In this document: one piece after another, positions 412-10,984 of the stretch
How the letters are laid out: every line of letters starts with the position of its first letter
Position numbering within the stretch: the stretch's first letter is position 1
UHGV virus genome: UHGV-0214741
Strand: one strand, 5' to 3'
Length of the DNA stretch: 14,669 bases
Source of the DNA: a virus
Notes under the pieces: model-generated
What the model was told of the DNA's origin: nothing
What the model saw: the letters and a program-made list of their open reading frames with translations, nothing else
Database searches by the model: none
Translations under genes and position numbers: made by a program

Positions 412-1659
412 ATGCGAAACATGAGCAGGGCAATTCATAGACTTAGCGACACTCTTTTACGAAAATTAAGCGGATCACCAACCACAAAAAACACCTTTTT
501 TAATGATGGTGGCAACCTTAGCGTAAGGCATTCAACCAATGGCCTGTTAACCTGGTATTTCACTTACAGGGCCGGAACTGGCAGGCAGGTATCACCGGAA
601 CGCCTGAGACTGGGCAACTATCCCGATCTGAGCCTGAAAGCAGCCAGAGAAAAAGCGGCACAGTGTCGCGCCTGGCTGGCGGAGGGGAAAAATCCACGCC
701 ATGAGCTTAATCACACAGTGCAGGAAGCGTTAGCACCTGTAACGGTTAAGGACGCGATCACTTACTGGCTTGAGTCATACGCGAAGGAAAAGCGCACTGA
801 CCACGAATCACTGAAAAGCCGGATCAATAAGCACATAATCAGCCAGATTGGTGCTATGCCGCTGGATAAATGCGAGTTACGCCACTGGCTGGCCTGTTTT
901 GACCAGCTTGCTAAGCGTAATCCGGTATCAGCCGGCTTTTTGTTGCAGGTATGCAAGCAGGCGCTTAAGTACTGCCGTAAACGTCGCTACGCCGTCAGTA
1001 ACGTTCTTGATGATATGGTCGTAGGTGATGTGGGAAAAAAAGCAGAAATAAGCGAGCGAGTGCTAACAAACAAGGAGCTTGGCGAGCTACTCCGCGCACT
1101 GGATGAAAAAATTTTCCCGCCGTACTACAGCGCCTTAATTCGCCTTCTGATTGTCTTTGGATGCCGTACCACTGAGCTAAGACGCTCCGAGGTTCAGGAA
1201 TGGGATTTTAAAGAAATGCTCTGGACTGTGCCGAAAGAACACAGCAAAACGAAGGTAGCAATATTCAGGCCAATACCGGAAGCGATCTTGCCGTTTGTCA
1301 TGAAGCTGGTGGAGAAGAACAGGCACACGGGCTTATTGCTTGGAGAACTGAAAGGGCAATCATCCGTAGCAGAGTACGGAAGAACGGCACACAGACGCAT
1401 TAATCAAGCCCCCTGGTCGTTGCATGACATCCGGCACACATTTACAACCATGCTGAACGATTTAGGCGTGGATCCGCATATTGTCGAGCAGCTTACCGCC
1501 CACCAGATGCCGGGGATGCAACGAGTCTATAACCACTCCCGTTATCTTGATGCAAAACGTGATGCTCTTAATCTATGGGTAGACCGTCTCGAGCTTCTCC
1601 AGAACAATGATGAAAAAATCGTTGTTATGACCCCGCGAATTTACCCCCAAAATTCTTGA
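412..1659 (+). CDS. int: Tyrosine site-specific integrase, P4-type (N-terminal DUF4102-like arm-binding domain plus C-terminal catalytic domain)
   Basis: 415 aa ORF. The N-terminus (LSDTLLRKL...FFNDGGNLSV...GLLTWYFTYR...LRLGNYPDLSLKAAREKA) fits the P4-integrase arm-binding pattern. The C-terminus has HDIRHTF (HxxR box) and RVYNHSRY with the catalytic Tyr. Stop TGA at 1657-1659. Confidence 0.9.
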   Translation: MRNMSRAIHRLSDTLLRKLSGSPTTKNTFFNDGGNLSVRHSTNGLLTWYFTYRAGTGRQVSPERLRLGNYPDLSLKAAREKAAQCRAWLAEGKNPRHELNHTVQEALAPVTVKDAITYWLESYAKEKRTDHESLKSRINKHIISQIGAMPLDKCELRHWLACFDQLAKRNPVSAGFLLQVCKQALKYCRKRRYAVSNVLDDMVVGDVGKKAEISERVLTNKELGELLRALDEKIFPPYYSALIRLLIVFGCRTTELRRSEVQEWDFKEMLWTVPKEHSKTKVAIFRPIPEAILPFVMKLVEKNRHTGLLLGELKGQSSVAEYGRTAHRRINQAPWSLHDIRHTFTTMLNDLGVDPHIVEQLTAHQMPGMQRVYNHSRYLDAKRDALNLWVDRLELLQNNDEKIVVMTPRIYPQNS

Positions 1660-2288: not shown

Positions 2289-2305
2289 AGGGGAGCATAT
2301 GACAT

Positions 2306-2335
2306 ATAAAACAAAGGCGACCGGGGGCGGTCGCC
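2306..2335 (-). terminator. Candidate rho-independent terminator for the minus-strand small-gene unit
   Basis: Perfect 8 bp stem GGCGACCG / CGGTCGCC with a 4 nt loop at 2316-2335. On the minus strand it is followed by TTTGTTTTAT (complement of 2306-2315). Confidence 0.45.
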
Positions 2336-2402
2336 AATGGATACACACTAAACTTGAACGCATCACCAACAATGCCACATTTGCGGCTGGTGGGCAATGT
2401 GA

Positions 2403-2591
2403 TCAGTCAGATTTGGTTCGTTCCAAGGTTTGCAACGAGAGCTTTTTCCTGTGCTCTTTAAGGAATTTCTCAAGAGCAAAAGCACATGGCGCGAATCTTT
2501 CTGATTCATGCTCTATCTTTCTGCGCCGTCTTTTCCGTGCCGGTGATAATGTTTTGGTCAATTCTTTATCGGTCATTGTGTTGTCCTGCAT
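2403..2591 (-). CDS. Hypothetical small basic protein (about 57-62 aa)
   Basis: ORF downstream of the RHH gene on the minus strand; highly charged (ARKRRRRKIEHESERF). No convincing SD before the first ATG; the second ATG (codon 6, MTDKEL) has AGGA 7 nt upstream. Could be spurious. Confidence 0.3.
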   Translation of the reverse strand: MQDNTMTDKELTKTLSPARKRRRRKIEHESERFAPCAFALEKFLKEHRKKLSLQTLERTKSD

Positions 2592-2633
2592 AGCAATGCG
2601 CCGTAGTTACTCACACCACGGCGCTGGTGATGG

Positions 2634-2813
2634 TTACTCCTGCTCTTTGGCCTTGCGGCGCTGGCGGCGTTTGATCTCGCCTTTAACGGCAGTAACTATA
2701 AATTGCGCCTTGCTTTCACCTTCATCTAAATTTTTTTCTAAGTCTGCAACAACATCATGCGGGAATCTGGCATTTAACTGTTGCGACTTATTATTTGTTG
2801 AACCTGTTGCCAT
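2634..2813 (-). CDS. Ribbon-helix-helix (Arc/MetJ-like) DNA-binding protein, candidate repressor of the replication operon
   Basis: 59 aa starting from the internal ATG at 2813-2811, which has GAGAGGA 8 nt upstream. MATGSTNNKSQQLNARFPHDVVADLEKNLDEGESKAQFIVTAVKGEIKRR fits the RHH beta-strand / helix / helix pattern (compare Arc FNLRWPREVLDLVRKVAEENGRSVNSEIYQRV). Transcribed divergently from the 3004 operon. Confidence 0.55.
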   Translation of the reverse strand: MATGSTNNKSQQLNARFPHDVVADLEKNLDEGESKAQFIVTAVKGEIKRRQRRKAKEQE

Positions 2814-2833
2814 TACTGAATCCTCTCTAAGTT

Positions 2834-2926
2834 GGTGCGATTCAGTATACACAAAAAAAATTTCAGAGAAAGGCTTGAAGTGCGATTCACTTGCTGATAG
2901 GTTAAAAACGAATGGTGCGATGCACC
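2834..2926. promoter_or_regulatory. Divergent promoter/operator region with three GTGCGAT(T/G)CA repeats
   Basis: GGTGCGATTCAG at 2834-2845, AGTGCGATTCAC at 2879-2890, GGTGCGATGCACC at 2914-2926 (the last is a perfect dyad GGTGC-GAT-GCACC). A TATACT -10-like hexamer on the minus strand overlaps the first site. Confidence 0.4.
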
Positions 2927-3003
2927 AAGCAACAACGCCCCGCAGTGGTGGCACACATGCAGGGCGTCTAACCACCAACGATAGCAACAGTATCGAGGCA
3001 GCT

Positions 3004-3207
3004 ATGAGAAATTATACCAGACACCCGCAAGGGCGGGACTCGTACAACCTGAATAAATACATCTGGCGTTTTATCGCCCTGAGCACGGCACAACCGCGCG
3101 TGATTACCATTGAGGCCACCAGCGAACAGGAAGCACGCCAGCAATCCCCGGCTGGCTACGTGATGGTATTCGCCGCCCGTATTCGTCAGGGGGTGTGCCA
3201 TGCCTGA
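3004..3207 (+). CDS. Hypothetical protein, first gene of the replication operon (67 aa)
   Basis: Internal ATG of the 2299-3207 ORF with GAGG 5 nt upstream; the C-terminal 67 aa have normal composition while the upstream 235 codons do not. The stop overlaps the next ATG (ATGCCTGA). Confidence 0.5.
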   Translation: MRNYTRHPQGRDSYNLNKYIWRFIALSTAQPRVITIEATSEQEARQQSPAGYVMVFAARIRQGVCHA

Positions 3208-6869: not shown

Positions 6870-6897
6870 GGCCTGGTAAAATCCAGGCCATTTTTTT
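6870..6897. terminator. Bidirectional rho-independent terminator between convergent genes
   Basis: Stem GGCCTGG (6870-6876), loop TAAAAT, stem CCAGGCC (6883-6889), then TTTTTTT (6891-6897) on the plus strand. The minus strand reads the same hairpin followed by TTTATTATT. Confidence 0.7.
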
Positions 6898-7402
6898 ACA
6901 GTAAGCCTATTAGGGCACTTGCGCCAGCCCCAACAATGCTGGCAACGGTACTGTTTTCCAGTAACTGCTTTAATACTGATTTGGCTTGTACATCCCCCGA
7001 TTTAGCGACTTTTTCAACCAGTTCAGTGATGCTGATGTTTACCAGCATATGGTTATGCTCACCTATCTGCACTTGATCACCACTAATTGAACCAATGTTA
7101 AATGTATTACTTTTAGTTGGCGTCATATGTTCATTTCCCGTGATATTTTCAATATAGAGAGTCAACATATTTGGATGATTGGTTCCCTGTCTGCGGGTTC
7201 CATTGGGAAGCAACTTCATATCTATAATTTTTAGATTTATCTCGTTTTTACCGACACGCTGGATAATGTGTTGACCAATAGTTACTTCCGGTTCATTTGT
7301 ATATGGAATTAATACCTTGTTTTCTTTTGCGTTTCTTTTACCTCTGAATGATTCGCCATTAATTATGAAAGTATCAGGATATACCATTGCGCTTAAATTC
7401 AT
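6896..7402 (-). CDS. Accessory (cargo) gene: 168 aa hypothetical protein with a C-terminal hydrophobic Gly/Ala-rich tail, candidate membrane-anchored effector
   Basis: Only sizeable gene on the opposite strand. It has its own SD (AAGGA 6 nt before the ATG at 7402-7400) and its own terminator. Hand-counted G+C is roughly 32-43 percent over most of the gene versus about 58 percent in the adjacent capsid gene. C-terminus is STVASIVGAGASALIGLL. No motif I recognise in the N-terminal 145 aa. Confidence 0.65.
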   Translation of the reverse strand: MNLSAMVYPDTFIINGESFRGKRNAKENKVLIPYTNEPEVTIGQHIIQRVGKNEINLKIIDMKLLPNGTRRQGTNHPNMLTLYIENITGNEHMTPTKSNTFNIGSISGDQVQIGEHNHMLVNISITELVEKVAKSGDVQAKSVLKQLLENSTVASIVGAGASALIGLL

Positions 7403-7467
7403 GATGCGTCCTTTGTTGTAGTCAGAGACAGCAATAATAGGCCATGGTTTACTTCTTTTGTAAATTA

Positions 7468-7498
7468 TTTGTTCGTGTTCTTTCGTGGTTGTTCGGTC
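7468..7498. repeat. Internal third copy of the TTGTTCG repeat array, in the divergent promoter region between the cargo gene and the capsid operon
   Basis: TTTGTTCGTG (7468-7477), TTCTTTCGTGG (7478-7488), TTGTTCGGTC (7489-7498) at about 10 bp phasing; compare 14401-14431 and 331-370. Candidate minus-strand -35 TTTACA (7464-7459) and -10 TATTAT (7439-7434) lie immediately beside it. Confidence 0.5.
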
Positions 7499-7688
7499 TG
7501 ACTGACAGGTGTTTACATACTGATTTTTATGTATATGTTGGAGCGTGGCACTCAGACGTGAGCCGCCACAATGCCGCCTGACCCCCTGCGCGATGCCGGG
7601 TTGATCTGCGAGATGCCGAGAGTGTCGGGCGGCGCTCCCCCCGTGTTGGTTTCACGTCCTGAATCTTAACCAATACGAGAAAACCTTC

Positions 7689-8858
7689 ATGAAGAAATTA
7701 ATCGAACTCCGCCAGCAAAAAAACGCCCTGAAAAACCAGATGCGATCCCTGCTGGAAAAAGCCGACAGTGAAAACCGTAGTCTGAACGCTGAAGAAGGCA
7801 AACAGTTTGATGAACTGCGTGCAAAAGCTGATGCCCTCGACACAGAAATTTCCCGCCTCGAGTCTGTGGCTGATGAAGAACGCAGCAAGCCAGGAACGGG
7901 CATCCAGAAATTATCATCTGATGAATTGCGTAACTACATCGTAACCGGAGATGTGCGATCACTGTCCACCAGCACTGACAGCGGCAGGGATGGCGGATAT
8001 ACCGTAATTCCTGAGCTTGATCGCGAAGTCATGCGCCAGCTACAGGATGACAGTGTTATGCGCGTGATCGCGACCGTGAAGACCGCAAAATCAAATGAGT
8101 TTCAGAAACTGGTTTCCACTGGCGGCGCAACTGTAGGACGAGGCACAGAAGGCAGCGCACGCAGTGAAACCAACACCCCGAAAATTGAACGCGTAACCAT
8201 CAAGTTGAATCCGATCTACGCCTACCCGAAAACCACGCAGGAAATCCTGGATTTTTCAGAGGTGGATATTCTGGGCTGGTTATCCTCCGAAATTGCCGAC
8301 ACGTTCGCCAGCACCGAAGAGGATGATTTTGTTAATGGCGACGGTAACGGCAAGCCGAAAGGCTTCATGGCTTACACCCGTGCGGCGACCAGTGACAAAA
8401 CCCGCGCTTTTGGCACCATTGAAAAAATAGTAGCGGCAAGTGGAACCGCCATTACAGCGGACGAACTGATCGACATTCTCTACAAGCTGAAAGCGAAATA
8501 CCGCAAAAATGCCGTCTGGGTGATGAACTCGGGCACGGCAGGGACACTACAGAAGCTGAAAAATGAGAACGGCGATTATATCTGGCGCGACAGCCTTAAA
8601 GAAGGTGCGCCGGATATGTTGCTTGGTCGTCCTGTTTACTGCCTGGAGTCCATGCCGGACATCGGCGCAGGAAAAGCACCGCTAGCGGTTGGCGATTTCA
8701 GTCGTGGTTATTTCATCGTTGATCATGTAACAGGGATTCGCACCCGACCGGACAACATTACTGAACCCGGATTCTACAAGGTCCACACGGATAAATATCT
8801 GGGCGGTGGTGTGGTGGATTCAAACGCCATCAAAATTCTGGAAATGAAAGCTGGCTAG
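7689..8858 (+). CDS. Major capsid protein, HK97-type, with an N-terminal coiled-coil (scaffold-like delta) region
   Basis: 389 aa. The N-terminal roughly 70 aa are strongly helical and charged (LIELRQQKNALKNQMRSLLEKADSENRSLNAEEGKQFDELRAKADALDTEISRLE), followed by a body typical of HK97-family capsid proteins. Followed by a prohead protease and portal. Confidence 0.85.
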   Translation: MKKLIELRQQKNALKNQMRSLLEKADSENRSLNAEEGKQFDELRAKADALDTEISRLESVADEERSKPGTGIQKLSSDELRNYIVTGDVRSLSTSTDSGRDGGYTVIPELDREVMRQLQDDSVMRVIATVKTAKSNEFQKLVSTGGATVGRGTEGSARSETNTPKIERVTIKLNPIYAYPKTTQEILDFSEVDILGWLSSEIADTFASTEEDDFVNGDGNGKPKGFMAYTRAATSDKTRAFGTIEKIVAASGTAITADELIDILYKLKAKYRKNAVWVMNSGTAGTLQKLKNENGDYIWRDSLKEGAPDMLLGRPVYCLESMPDIGAGKAPLAVGDFSRGYFIVDHVTGIRTRPDNITEPGFYKVHTDKYLGGGVVDSNAIKILEMKAG

Positions 8859-9474: not shown

Positions 9475-10689
9475 ATGTGGTGGCCTTTTAGTCGTAAAAA
9501 AAGCGAGCAGCGTAACCTGTCCATTGATGATTTTCTGGCGCTGTCCGGCGTACCGAATACCGGATCCGGAGAATATGTTTCTGCCGGGACGGCTGAATCA
9601 TTGCCTGCAGTGATGAATGCGGTTTCTGTCATCGCTGAGGCGGTGGCCACGATGCCGTGTTATCTGTATCTGGTACGTAATGACAAGGGCAGGGAGGCGC
9701 GGGAATGGCTGGACAGTCACCCAGTAGATATTCTGCTGAATGAGCAGCCTAATTCGTGCCAGACACCTTACCAGTTTAAACGCACAATGATGCGTCACTG
9801 CCTGCTAAACGGTAACGCCTATGCGGTTATTGAGTGGGGGCAGGACGGGCAGCCAAAATCACTTCATCCTTATGCGCCGGGGTGTGTTGTACCGGAACGC
9901 ACAGGCGCACACAAATACCGCTATACCATCACCGAACCCTGTACAGGAACGGTGCGCACGTATTTACAGGAAGAAGTTTTGCATCTCCGCTATGCCTCGG
10001 ATGATGGCTTTCTGGGGCGTTCCCCCGTCACGATTTGCCGTGAGGCGCTGGGGCTTGGCCTTGCTCAACAGCGTCACGGAGCCAGCATTATGAAAGATGG
10101 CATGATGGCGGCAGGGATTATCACGTCAGGCGAATGGCTGGACGGCGTGAAAGGTAAACAGGCATTGGATGCTCTGGAACGCTACAAGGGGGCGAAAAAT
10201 GCCGGAAAAACGCCAATCCTTGAAGGGGGCATGGATTACAGGCAACTGGGAATGAGTAACCAGGATGCGGAATGGCTGGCCTCCCGTCGCTTCTCCATTG
10301 AAGACATCGCCCGCATGTTCAACGTATCGCCTATTTTTCTGCAGGAATACAGCAACAGCACCTACAGCAATTTCAGCGAGGCAAGCCGCGCGTTTCTGAC
10401 CATGACAATGCGCCCGTGGCTGGCGAACTTCGAACAGCAAATCAAGGCCGCTTTGCTGGTGGCTTCTCCCGTACCTGGTACCCGTTATCTGGTTGAGTTT
10501 GATTCAGCCGATTTATTACGCGCCACACCCACCGAACGTTATGCCACGTATGAGAAAGGGATTAAGAACGGGATCATGAATCCGAACGAAGCCCGTGAGC
10601 GTGAGGGTATGCCGCCGCGTGAAGGTGGTGATGAGTTCAGCCAGGCATGGAAACAGACTGTGGAAATTAAAGGGAGAAAAGATGAGTGA
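9475..10689 (+). CDS. Portal protein, HK97 family
   Basis: The ORF track starts at 9385 inside the protease gene. ATG 9475 (MWWPFSRKK...) begins 1 nt after the protease stop and is the more likely start. About 404 aa, with length and position typical of HK97-type portals. Confidence 0.85.
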   Translation: MWWPFSRKKSEQRNLSIDDFLALSGVPNTGSGEYVSAGTAESLPAVMNAVSVIAEAVATMPCYLYLVRNDKGREAREWLDSHPVDILLNEQPNSCQTPYQFKRTMMRHCLLNGNAYAVIEWGQDGQPKSLHPYAPGCVVPERTGAHKYRYTITEPCTGTVRTYLQEEVLHLRYASDDGFLGRSPVTICREALGLGLAQQRHGASIMKDGMMAAGIITSGEWLDGVKGKQALDALERYKGAKNAGKTPILEGGMDYRQLGMSNQDAEWLASRRFSIEDIARMFNVSPIFLQEYSNSTYSNFSEASRAFLTMTMRPWLANFEQQIKAALLVASPVPGTRYLVEFDSADLLRATPTERYATYEKGIKNGIMNPNEAREREGMPPREGGDEFSQAWKQTVEIKGRKDE

Positions 10690-10984
10690 AGCCAGAATTA
10701 CACCTGATGAAGTCAGGGCACATCTTCGACTTGATGATGATTTATCCGGTGAAGGCGAACTTCTGAAAATGTATACCGATGCGGCGCTGGAAGCCTGCCA
10801 GAAGCATATCGGGAAACGTTTTGAAGACGGGCTGGAATTTACCCCGGCAATGCGTGTTGGTTGCCTGATGTACATCGCTTTCCTGTACGAGAACCGGGAA
10901 GCGGTTTCACCAGTGGAGCACTCGGAACTGCCTATGGCTATTTCTGCGCTCTGGTCAGTTTATCGTGACGTAGGGGTGTACTGA
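10682..10984 (+). CDS. Head-tail connector (gp6-like head-tail adaptor) protein
   Basis: The ORF track begins at 10595, but ATG 10682 has GGGAG 5 nt upstream and overlaps the portal stop. MSEARITPDEVRAHLRLDDD...GELLKMYTDAALEACQKHIGKR fits the gp6-like connector pattern. About 100 aa. Confidence 0.7.
   Translation: MSEARITPDEVRAHLRLDDDLSGEGELLKMYTDAALEACQKHIGKRFEDGLEFTPAMRVGCLMYIAFLYENREAVSPVEHSELPMAISALWSVYRDVGVY

What the first reader, a model, noticed from the sequence alone, without database searches (positions are those of the whole stretch)
6896..7402. Low-GC, opposite-strand single-gene cargo between the replication and capsid modules: candidate novel membrane-anchored effector
This is the one gene the satellite backbone does not explain. 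It is the only substantial minus-strand gene inside the element and forms its own transcription unit (own SD, candidate promoter at 7434-7464, and a bidirectional terminator at 6870-6897). Its base composition is clearly foreign: my hand counts of 60-nt lines give about 32-43 percent G+C, against about 58 percent in the neighbouring capsid gene. The 168 aa product has a soluble N-terminal region of about 145 aa with no motif I recognise, and ends in a hydrophobic Gly/Ala-rich tail (STVASIVGAGASALIGLL), i.e. a tail-anchored membrane topology. In satellites and PICIs such variable slots commonly hold anti-phage or helper-interference genes, and single-gene membrane-acting abortive-infection effectors are a known theme, so an uncharacterised defence or exclusion function is a reasonable hypothesis. 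The function is inferred from context only.
Basis: partly seen in the sequence, partly recalled or inferred. Interest (0 to 1): 0.8.

Follow-up and report, generated by a model that had tools for sequence, protein, structure and literature searches.

The report
RHIM-like motif protein in phage satellite
The odd low-GC gene in this E. coli phage satellite is a real, separately inserted cargo gene, and its unannotated protein joins a small barrel domain to a motif resembling the amyloid "RHIM" switch of animal necroptosis and to a membrane-seeking tail, which suggests, but does not prove, a one-protein cell-suicide defence against phages.

Summary
The ORF at 6896-7402 (-) encodes 168 aa and has the lowest G+C in the island (37.9%). 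It lies in a clean 552-bp insertion (6896-7447) that sibling capsid-forming PICIs lack. The slot between the replication and capsid modules is a published variable region "expected to encode immune systems".

Residues 100-124 (TFNIGSISGDQVQIGEHNHMLVNIS) are the most conserved part of the protein, are disordered in the AlphaFold monomer, and resemble the RHIM amyloid motif. The window protein scores 15.4 bits against Pfam RHIM (cut-off 20); a relative scores 25.2. A profile of the module ranks RIPK1/RIPK3 RHIM constructs as the top 7 of 177,635 PDB sequences.

The motif, two helices and a Gly/Ala-rich C-terminal helix form a module fused to many unrelated N-terminal domains (263 clusters). It occurs in satellites, prophage moron and hotspot loci, and integron-like arrays. 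In sibling islands the same slot holds two adjacent genes that share the motif, as in known amyloid-signalling pairs.

There is no match in PADLOC, NCBIfam or Tai. My best reading is a sensor, amyloid switch and membrane effector in one protein that causes abortive infection. This is inferred, not shown. Novelty: new variant of a known kind.

The parts
6896..7447 (-). 552-bp cargo insertion: the ORF plus 45 bp of its own 5' leader, including the SD and the -10 element
   Evidence: Alignment with sibling cf-PICIs that lack it (E. coli 3150, TUM1881) shows a clean indel with conserved flanks.
6896..7402 (-). ORF of 168 aa (WP_001053662.1, annotated 'hypothetical protein')
   Evidence: 98 homologues of constant length ~168-171 aa. 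Full-length match to PHROG 5789, function unknown.
7118..7402 (-). N-terminal small beta-barrel domain (aa 1-95), the putative sensor or ligand-binding domain
7031..7105 (-). RHIM-like motif TFNIGSISGDQVQIGEHNHMLVNIS (aa 100-124), with core VQIG..N
   Evidence: Pfam RHIM scores 15.4 bits, E 0.014, below the 20-bit cut-off. I103, Q112 and G114 are invariant; G108 and N117 nearly so. Q-x-G-x-x-N is invariant across 31 diverse module proteins. pLDDT <50 in the monomer model. PDB profile search ranks RIPK1/RIPK3 RHIM constructs as the top 7. Shuffle test.
6956..7030 (-). Two conserved helices (aa 125-149, ITELVEKVAKSGDVQAKSVLKQLLE)
   Evidence: AlphaFold2 helices 125-134 and 138-149. Conserved A-K and L positions across the module.
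6899..6955 (-). C-terminal Gly/Ala/Ser/Leu-rich hydrophobic helix (aa 150-168, NSTVASIVGAGASALIGLL), a glycine-zipper-like, marginal transmembrane segment
   Evidence: Helix 151-167. KD 1.48. Family KD17 mean 1.77 and Hessa-type sum mean +2.2. Always within 0-7 residues of the C-terminus in relatives.
7409..7413 (-). Shine-Dalgarno AAGGA, 6 nt upstream of the ATG
   Evidence: Read from the sequence.
7434..7464 (-). Candidate sigma-70 promoter TTTACA-19 nt-TATTAT. The -10 (7434-7439) lies in the insert and the -35 (7459-7464) in backbone DNA.
   Evidence: Read from the sequence. Not called by the scan because of the 19-nt spacer. Junction position.
6870..6889 (.). Bidirectional intrinsic-terminator-like hairpin GGCCTGG-TAAAAT-CCAGGCC; a backbone element shared with the upstream + strand gene
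   Evidence: Homologous hairpin present in islands without the cargo.

Best explanation
The gene is accessory cargo of a capsid-forming phage-inducible chromosomal island (cf-PICI). Its product belongs to a widespread, unannotated family carried on mobile elements. The family is defined by a C-terminal module with three parts: a RHIM-like motif of about 25 residues (h-N-I-G-s-I-s-g-x-x-V-Q-[IVL]-G-x-x-N...N-I-s-I), a two-helix hairpin, and a glycine-zipper-like hydrophobic helix that ends the protein. In this protein the module follows a small beta-barrel.

Proposed mechanism (inferred, not shown):
1. At rest the protein is monomeric, the motif is unstructured and the marginally hydrophobic tail is not productively inserted.
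2. A phage-derived cue is recognised by the N-terminal barrel and clusters the protein. In sibling islands a second motif-bearing protein, encoded immediately upstream, may do this instead.
3. The RHIM-like motifs stack into a cross-beta (amyloid-type) homotypic assembly.
4. That assembly brings many C-terminal helices together, and they insert co-operatively into the inner membrane and permeabilise it.
5. The infected cell dies before phage release (abortive infection).

What is shown: the gene is an inserted cargo; the module is conserved and modular; the motif resembles RHIM in sequence; motif-sharing gene pairs exist; the family lives in defence and moron contexts.

What is inferred: amyloid formation, membrane permeabilisation, the trigger, and the anti-phage phenotype.
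For: Cargo:
- Clean 552-bp indel versus sibling islands.
- Lowest G+C in the island.
- The slot is a known variable region expected to hold immune systems.

Motif:
- Pfam RHIM is the only Pfam hit (15.4 bits).
- RHIM is the commonest Pfam hit among relatives: 8 of 33 and 9 of 48.
- One relative passes the curated cut-off (P0244, 25.2 vs 20 bits).
- Q-x-G-x-x-N is invariant across 31 diverse sequences.
- A profile of the module ranks RIPK1/RIPK3 RHIM amyloid constructs as the top 7 of 177,635 PDB sequences.
- The match is order-specific: mouse RIPK1 RHIM scores 21.7 bits and 0 of 20,000 shuffles reach it.
- The motif is the best-conserved region yet has pLDDT <50 in the monomer model, as expected for a conditionally folding motif.

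Modularity:
- 263 clusters match at E<=1e-3.
- Many share only the C-terminal module behind unrelated N-domains such as a Zn-ribbon, wHTH-like and helical domains.
- In P0095-97 the N-domain is 14-19% identical to the window protein and the C-module 68-79%. These variants sit in the same slot.

Pairing:
- In E. coli BA92, Enterobacter soli and 6 IMG/VR satellites, the slot holds a 254-aa gene with the same motif but no hydrophobic tail, 30 bp upstream of the barrel-type gene.
- The same 254-aa-type N-domain also occurs fused to the complete module (P0153, L033, L094/96/97). This reproduces the two-component versus all-in-one pattern of amyloid-signalling systems.

Context:
- P2-like prophage next to a HEPN protein, an S8 peptidase and a Dam methylase.
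- Next to AbiTii.
- Next to a HigB/HigA-like pair.
- KAP NTPase, HEPN_AbiV and DUF4917 among neighbours.
- Moron locus between Rz and terS.
- Integron-like cassette array.

Precedent: Bab/Agp amyloid-signalling abortive infection in E. coli (10.1101/2024.11.07.622273).
Against: - There is no experimental evidence for any step.
- The window protein itself is below the Pfam RHIM cut-off.
- Individual PDB E-values are 0.1-0.6.
- In this island there is no partner with the motif within the window.
- The motif is internal rather than terminal, unlike all described BASS, FASS and RHIM effector arrangements.
- The tail is only marginally hydrophobic, so membrane insertion is not assured.
- No PADLOC model matches.
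- The family's recurrent association with the cf-PICI head module, together with a neck-protein-like fold, leaves room for a role in the satellite life cycle.
- AlphaFold2 monomer disorder is also compatible with an ordinary flexible linker.
Confidence: 0.45

Rival explanations
1. Satellite life-cycle or helper-interference factor. The N-terminal barrel mimics a phage head-completion (stopper or head-tail joining) protein. It binds helper-phage necks, DNA-filled heads or tails, blocks helper head-tail joining and so leaves tails for the satellite's own capsids. The motif and tail only serve to oligomerise the protein and tether it to the membrane.
Confidence: 0.17
2. Ordinary small membrane-associated accessory protein without amyloid behaviour, for example an exclusion, toxin or lysis-modulating moron. 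On this view the conserved motif is a beta-hairpin linker or a conventional oligomerisation element, and the RHIM resemblance is convergent or coincidental.
For: The window protein is below the Pfam cut-off. PDB E-values are 0.1-0.6. N/Q/G/I-rich short motifs can converge. One homologue lies directly after a lysis cassette. The tail resembles glycine-zipper segments of small membrane toxins (own knowledge).
Against: Invariance of Q-x-G-x-x-N across very divergent proteins. Reciprocal RHIM hits from Pfam and PDB. Order-specific similarity. Adjacent gene pairs share just this motif. The N-terminal domain is cytoplasmic by topology (no signal peptide, C-terminal tail), which does not suit periplasmic injection blocks.
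Confidence: 0.2
3. Anti-defence decoy. A mobile-element protein carrying a RHIM/BASS-like motif that co-assembles with, and neutralises, host amyloid-signalling defences, as viral RHIM proteins block necroptosis.
For: It is carried by satellites and prophages that must survive host immunity. E. coli has amyloid-signalling defence (Bab/Agp). The residues reported for BASS11 (I-G-S-V, D-N) loosely resemble IGSI...E-H-N here. Viral and bacterial RHIM decoys are mentioned.
Against: A decoy does not need a conserved membrane-seeking tail. The family is common in taxa where BASS pairs are unreported. The gene has its own promoter on the strand opposite the induced operons, which suggests expression in the resident state.
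Confidence: 0.06
4. Second-messenger-responsive effector. The barrel is a PilZ-like nucleotide-binding domain, and ligand binding drives membrane disruption by the tail, in the manner of CBASS Cap15-type effectors.
Against: The canonical RxxxR and D/NxSxxG c-di-GMP motifs are absent from the window protein (RGKRNAK; DMKLLPNG; read). No cyclase or CD-NTase neighbour in any context examined. The N-domain is replaceable by unrelated domains.
Confidence: 0.05

Closest known systems
Bab/Agp (BASS11) amyloid-signalling abortive-infection system of E. coli ECOR25 (bioRxiv 10.1101/2024.11.07.622273)
   Same: Both are in E. coli and carried on mobile elements or in defence hotspots. Both have a short N/Q/G-rich motif that controls a small membrane-targeting protein. 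A motif shared by adjacent genes also occurs in sibling islands here (BA92, E. soli). The residues reported for BASS11 (I-G-S-V, D-N) are loosely similar.
   Different: Bab has an N-terminal Bell-like helical pore domain and a C-terminal motif. Here a beta-barrel comes first, the motif is internal and the hydrophobic helix is C-terminal. There is no TPR-GreA/B-PIN (Agp) partner, and in this window no partner at all. The Bab sequence could not be aligned.
RHIM (Pfam PF12721) of RIPK1, RIPK3, ZBP1 and TRIF, and fungal PP / bacterial BASS3 RHIM-like motifs
   Same: Core (I/V)-Q-(I/V/L)-G followed by a conserved N at +3. Length of about 20-25 residues. Reciprocal sequence hits.
   Different: The window protein scores 15.4 bits against a cut-off of 20. 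No kinase or NLR context. BASS3 is reported in Actinobacteria and Cyanobacteria as Bell/NLR pairs with terminal motifs. Here the motif is in Gammaproteobacteria and others, is internal, and is mostly in solitary genes.
HET-S/NWD2 and HELLP/PNT1 fungal amyloid-controlled pore formers
   Same: The logic is the same: an amyloid motif converts a latent membrane-inserting domain, and both two-component and all-in-one architectures exist.
   Different: Unrelated effector fold (HeLo/Hell versus a helical hairpin plus glycine-zipper tail). The order of elements is reversed. The sensor is not a STAND NTPase.
Tai (tail assembly inhibition) systems of PICIs, P4-like satellites and prophages (PMC11364771)
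   Same: Single small genes of about 180-210 aa in the same kinds of places: after pri in PICIs and before terS in phages. Unknown to PADLOC and DefenseFinder when found.
   Different: No homology: TaiSalA against the family profile gives hhalign probability 5%. TaiSalA is helical, with an RNARSH-type motif, and has no RHIM-like motif or hydrophobic tail.
Phage head-completion / stopper / head-tail joining proteins (e.g. 2KZ4, phage Chi Neck 2) and PilZ domains
   Different: 5-23% identity. No Pfam match. The two fold classes score alike, so the resemblance does not assign a function.

Membership tests
Pfam RHIM (PF12721) | Score at or above the curated gathering threshold (20 bits) | tested here: not met
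   The window protein scores 15.4 bits, E 0.014. The relative P0244, with the same module, scores 25.2 bits. 8 of 33 and 9 of 48 relatives give sub-threshold hits.
Pfam RHIM (PF12721) | Core tetrad (I/V)-Q-(I/V/L/C)-G with a conserved Asn three residues after the Gly | tested here: met
   V111-Q112-I113-G114...N117. Q, G and N are invariant in 31 diverse module sequences. Aligned to RIPK1 IQIGNHN / IQIGAYN.
Pfam RHIM (PF12721) | Forms cross-beta amyloid and mediates homotypic interaction | not testable with these tools
   Only indirect evidence: disordered in the monomer model, three low-confidence strands in the P0096 model, and motif-sharing gene pairs.
Amyloid-signalling gene pairs (FASS/BASS; NWD2/HET-S, Agp/Bab) | The same motif in the products of two adjacent genes | tested here: not met
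   One motif copy in the window and in L001-L006. The feature is met in sibling loci: E. coli BA92 (L045), E. soli (L014) and 6 IMG/VR contigs.
Amyloid-signalling gene pairs (FASS/BASS; NWD2/HET-S, Agp/Bab) | Motif at the C-terminus of the effector and the N-terminus of a STAND/NLR or TGP sensor | tested here: not met
   The motif is internal (aa 100-124 of 168). No NACHT, NB-ARC, TPR or PIN neighbour.
Bab-type (Bell/HeLo-like) effector | N-terminal helical pore-forming domain with an N-terminal hydrophobic helix | tested here: not met
   The N-terminus is a beta-barrel and the hydrophobic helix is C-terminal.
Tai systems | Sequence homology to tested Tai proteins | tested here: not met
   hhalign of TaiSalA against the family gives probability 5%. 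tblastn of the protein against 50,697 phage records, at E <= 1e-3, returned only three hits, none of them KC139516 (the TaiSalA record).
PilZ (c-di-GMP receptor) | RxxxR and (D/N)xSxxG motifs | tested here: not met
Phage head-closure / head-tail joining protein (Phage_HCP-type) | Profile match, and position within the head-tail gene order | tested here: not met
Tail-anchored membrane protein | Single hydrophobic segment at the extreme C-terminus and no signal peptide | tested here: met
   aa 150-168 end the protein. Relatives end 0-7 residues after the segment.
Tail-anchored membrane protein | Segment hydrophobic enough for stable insertion | tested here: inconclusive
   KD 1.48 (19 aa) in the window protein. 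Family KD17 mean 1.77. Hessa-type sum mean +2.2 kcal/mol.
Known anti-phage defence systems (PADLOC-DB 2.0) | Match to any model | tested here: not met
   0 families for the protein. 1 weak hit among 48 relatives.
Capsid-forming PICI (host element) | int, alpA, pri plus own capsid, protease, portal, connector, HNH, terS and terL, with no tail genes | tested here: met
   The island lies between cspD/yljB and clpS.

The most novel reading that the evidence does not exclude
This is the barrel-type member of a previously undescribed, widespread class of one-protein (sometimes two-gene) bacterial immune effectors. A RHIM-type amyloid switch is wired directly to a latent membrane-inserting tail and coupled to interchangeable sensor domains. 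That would extend RHIM-like amyloid signalling from animals, fungi and filamentous bacteria to unicellular Gammaproteobacteria and their phage satellites, prophages and integron cassettes.
Probability: 0.35. Interest if true: 0.85.

Novelty: new variant of a known kind. Interest (0 to 1): 0.74.

Why it matters
If the motif really works as an amyloid switch, this family would be a minimal, genetically tractable E. coli model of RHIM-type signalling: about 170 residues with sensor, switch and executioner in one chain. It would also be a natural library of swapped sensor domains for asking what triggers such switches.

It would add a new cargo class to the immune hotspots of phage satellites. It would also bear on the debated evolutionary link between bacterial abortive infection and necroptosis-like cell death.

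If instead the barrel targets phage necks, it would show how tail-stealing satellites manipulate helper assembly. Either result is directly testable with simple plaque, toxicity and fibril assays.

Tried and rejected
- Libraries. PADLOC and NCBIfam gave no hit. PHROGs gave only an unknown-function family.
- Tai systems. Same genomic niches, but unrelated in sequence.
- PilZ reading. Rejected for lack of the c-di-GMP motifs.
- Partner gene in the window. Six-frame motif scan found only one copy.
- Bab (OWC60847.1) sequence, wanted to align BASS11 with this motif. It is not printed in the preprint, no supplements are held, and no published version was found.
- The search for related loci with the diverse module alignment failed for lack of a conserved stretch. 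It worked with a closer subset.
Motif-only occurrences in large sensor proteins therefore remain unexamined.
- P0139 context look-up found nothing on record.
- Literature searches for RHIM-like motifs in prokaryotic defence found no description of this family.

Full report
**1. The observation**

The window is a complete capsid-forming PICI (cf-PICI) of E. coli FFFEB2, inserted between cspD/yljB and clpS. It carries an integrase, alpA, an Icd-like gene, DUF4222, a D5-type primase, SSB, an HK97-type capsid protein, an S78 protease, a portal protein, a gp6-like connector, HNH, terS and terL. It has no tail genes.

The ORF at 6896-7402 (-) exists and encodes 168 aa. RefSeq annotates it as hypothetical protein WP_001053662.1. 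Its G+C is 0.379 (GC3 0.349), the lowest of any gene in the island.

A 7-bp-stem hairpin at 6870-6889, with T-runs on both strands, is detected. It is visible by eye but falls outside the scan's spacer range. An AAGGA Shine-Dalgarno lies 6 nt from the ATG.

**2. It is cargo**

Alignment with near-identical islands in E. coli 3150 and TUM1881 shows that 6896-7447 is a clean 552-bp insertion. The terminator hairpin and the -35 hexamer belong to the backbone; the -10, the SD and the ORF belong to the insert.

Among 5,426 complete E. coli genomes, the capsid type occurs in 156. The full gene occurs in 51. In 25 more genomes only the 3' part of the gene, which encodes the C-terminal module, matches at 60-80% identity. 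The same protein also sits in an island with a different integrase and attachment site in SMS-3-5, between rcnR and thiM.

He et al. describe the regions before and after the cf-PICI packaging operon as variable and "expected to encode immune systems" (10.1101/2025.02.11.637232).

Family members sit below their surroundings in G+C in every host checked, by 7-15 points in 15 of the 16 loci and by 1.5 points in the sixteenth (L012).

**3. What the protein is**

Curated libraries give nothing: no PADLOC or NCBIfam hit, and a full-length match only to PHROG 5789 of unknown function. The single Pfam hit is RHIM (RIP homotypic interaction motif) at aa 110-119, scoring 15.4 bits, below the 20-bit cut-off.

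Ninety-eight homologues of constant length come from Enterobacterales, Pseudomonas, Shewanella and Xanthomonas. Their alignment shows that the region around that hit is the most conserved part of the protein. I103, Q112 and G114 are invariant, and G108 and N117 nearly so.

AlphaFold2 (mean pLDDT 78) gives four parts:
- a confident beta-barrel (aa 1-95);
- a low-confidence segment exactly over the conserved motif (aa 97-121, pLDDT <50);
- helices at 125-134 and 138-149;
- a terminal helix at 151-167.

The tail NSTVASIVGAGASALIGLL is Gly/Ala/Ser/Leu-rich and only marginally hydrophobic. Kyte-Doolittle is 1.48 for the window protein, and the family mean Hessa-type sum is +2.2 kcal/mol.

**4. The module**

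A profile search of 1.84 billion representative proteins found 263 clusters at E<=1e-3. Many proteins of 140-250 aa match only profile positions ~90-168: the motif, the two helices and the tail. In these proteins the module always lies at the extreme C-terminus, behind unrelated N-terminal domains such as a Zn-ribbon, wHTH-like domains and several helical types.

Across 31 such diverse sequences the invariant columns are Q, G and N of x-Q-x-G-x-x-N, plus an Ala, a Leu and a Gly further on.

Evidence that the motif is RHIM-like:
- RHIM is the commonest Pfam hit in this set (9 of 48). One member, P0244, passes the curated threshold at 25.2 bits.
- In the reverse direction, a profile of the module searched against all PDB sequences ranks seven RIPK1/RIPK3 RHIM amyloid constructs first (E 0.096-0.63).
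- A motif-only HMM scores mouse RIPK1 RHIM at 21.7 bits, and none of 20,000 composition-matched shuffles reaches that. Human RIPK1 scores 10.2 bits, reached by 8 of 20,000 shuffles.

The resemblance is modest per sequence but reciprocal, order-specific, and centred on the invariant residues.

**5. Gene pairs**

In the window, and in the six loci fetched by that point (L001-L006), the motif occurs once. In E. coli BA92, Enterobacter soli and six IMG/VR satellite contigs, the same slot holds two co-oriented genes:
- a 254-aa protein whose C-terminal part carries the same motif (NIFNIATVNSQYVQLGTNNNINIQEL) but ends hydrophilically;
- 30 bp downstream, the 169-aa barrel-motif-tail protein.

The 254-aa type of N-domain also occurs fused to the complete module, tail included (P0153, L033, L094/96/97). 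Adjacent genes sharing a short motif, alongside all-in-one fusions, are the genomic signature by which fungal and bacterial amyloid-signalling systems were defined.

**6. Context elsewhere**

Relatives occur in the following places:
- a Pseudomonas P2-like prophage, between tail gene D and a cluster containing a HEPN protein, an S8 peptidase and a Dam methylase;
- next to AbiTii;
- next to a HigB/HigA-like pair and Dam;
- between Rz and HNH-terS of a lambdoid phage;
- in arrays of small co-oriented ORFs in Xanthomonas, Shewanella and Vreelandella; the Xanthomonas array has attC-like repeats;
- next to KAP NTPase, HEPN_AbiV and DUF4917.

Thirty-one loci in species-representative genomes include MAGs of Thermodesulfobacteriota, Sulfurimonas, Kiritimatiellales and Flavobacteriaceae. 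Of 51 IMG/VR loci, about 40 are cf-PICI-like, with the gene divergent from the capsid gene. Across these, capsid protein identity ranges from 64 to 100% and N-domain identity from 42 to 100%.

**7. The N-terminal barrel**

The very divergent slot variant P0096 is 19% identical in the N-domain and 77% identical in the C-module. It models as the same architecture and gives the same two hit classes. Foldseek against viral models found nothing significant. The canonical PilZ c-di-GMP motifs are absent. The fold therefore does not identify the ligand. The neck-protein likeness is a lead worth testing, given that cf-PICIs depend on head-tail joining.

**8. Interpretation**

The best-supported reading is a latent membrane effector controlled by a RHIM-like homotypic (probably cross-beta) motif and coupled to a sensor domain. 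That would make it a one-protein, or in sibling islands a two-protein, abortive-infection device. It is analogous to Bab/Agp, HET-S/NWD2 and RIPK3-MLKL, but has a different architecture: the motif is internal, the membrane helix is C-terminal, and there is no STAND or TGP sensor.

None of the mechanistic steps is shown.

Rival readings:
- a helper-interference role through neck mimicry;
- an ordinary membrane moron with a coincidental motif;
- an anti-defence decoy;
- a PilZ-like nucleotide-responsive effector.

Tai systems occupy the same niches but are unrelated.

**9. Verdict**

The gene belongs to an undescribed modular family whose hallmark is a RHIM-like motif. Novelty: new variant of a known kind. 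Interest is high because the hypothesis is specific and cheap to test.

Noticed in passing
L004:7600-12600 (Xanthomonas contig SRR24512235_399): The homologue lies in an array of small co-oriented ORFs. The array is punctuated by five copies of a 57-nt repeat, TCTAAC...GCGGCGCGGCTTAATT...GTTAG, which looks like integron attC sites. The gene itself is bracketed by another ~49-nt repeat (9859-9907 and 10516-10564). Shewanella (L005) and Vreelandella (L020) loci look similar. This suggests the gene travels as a cassette.
   Followed up: partly
window 10682-10984; compare L006:6088-6716: Between portal and HNH this island encodes only a gp6-like connector (Phage_connect_1). The cf-PICI in L006 has both Phage_connect_1 and a Phage_HCP head-closure gene. 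I did not resolve whether this island lacks a stopper or uses an unrecognised one.
   Followed up: partly
window 412-1659 versus L001:2157-3377 (E. coli SMS-3-5): An identical cargo protein and an identical capsid protein (the same RefSeq accessions in both strains), with the packaging genes annotated alike, occur in islands with different integrases and attachment sites: cspD|clpS here and rcnR|thiM in SMS-3-5. The right half of the island therefore recombines between backbones.
   Followed up: partly
L002:9320-9922 (Pseudomonas P2-like prophage): The gene immediately upstream of the homologue is a 200-aa HEPN_RiboL-PSP-like protein (26.7 bits; cut-off 28.4). The tested Tai protein TaiSalA (L043:779-1324) also shows an RNARSH HEPN-like motif by eye. 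The neighbour may therefore be Tai-like. Not tested.
   Followed up: no
L020:5539-6156 and 7704-8210 (Vreelandella zhanjiangensis): Two different module-bearing genes lie 1.5 kb apart in one array, separated by a 453-aa ORF with no Pfam match. One has a wHTH-like N-domain and a modified, less hydrophobic tail. The other is barrel-type.
   Followed up: partly
P0124 (326 aa) and P0131 (334 aa): Two proteins keep the barrel but have a degenerate motif (the QxG core is lost). They continue into other sequence; P0124 is probably the member that ends in a GNAT acetyltransferase domain (one GNAT hit among the 48 proteins scanned). They may be decayed fusions or gene-call artefacts.
   Followed up: no
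window 7448-7688: A 240-bp G+C-rich leader upstream of the capsid gene is conserved in islands with and without the cargo. It carries a + strand promoter-like site, TTTACA-16-TATGTT, at 7512-7539. This is presumably the control region of the packaging operon.
   Followed up: no
window ~2264-2624 and 2299-3207: RefSeq marks a truncated pseudogene after alpA. The 302-aa ORF listed at 2299-3207 overlaps the minus-strand YlcI/YnfO gene and the Icd-like gene, so it is probably not a real gene.
   Followed up: no
L044:2811-3287 (phage vB_EcoM-689R6): A gene annotated 'terminase small subunit' sits between the holin and Rz, where an endolysin is expected. A second terS is annotated downstream. This is probably a mis-annotation in the record.
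   Followed up: no
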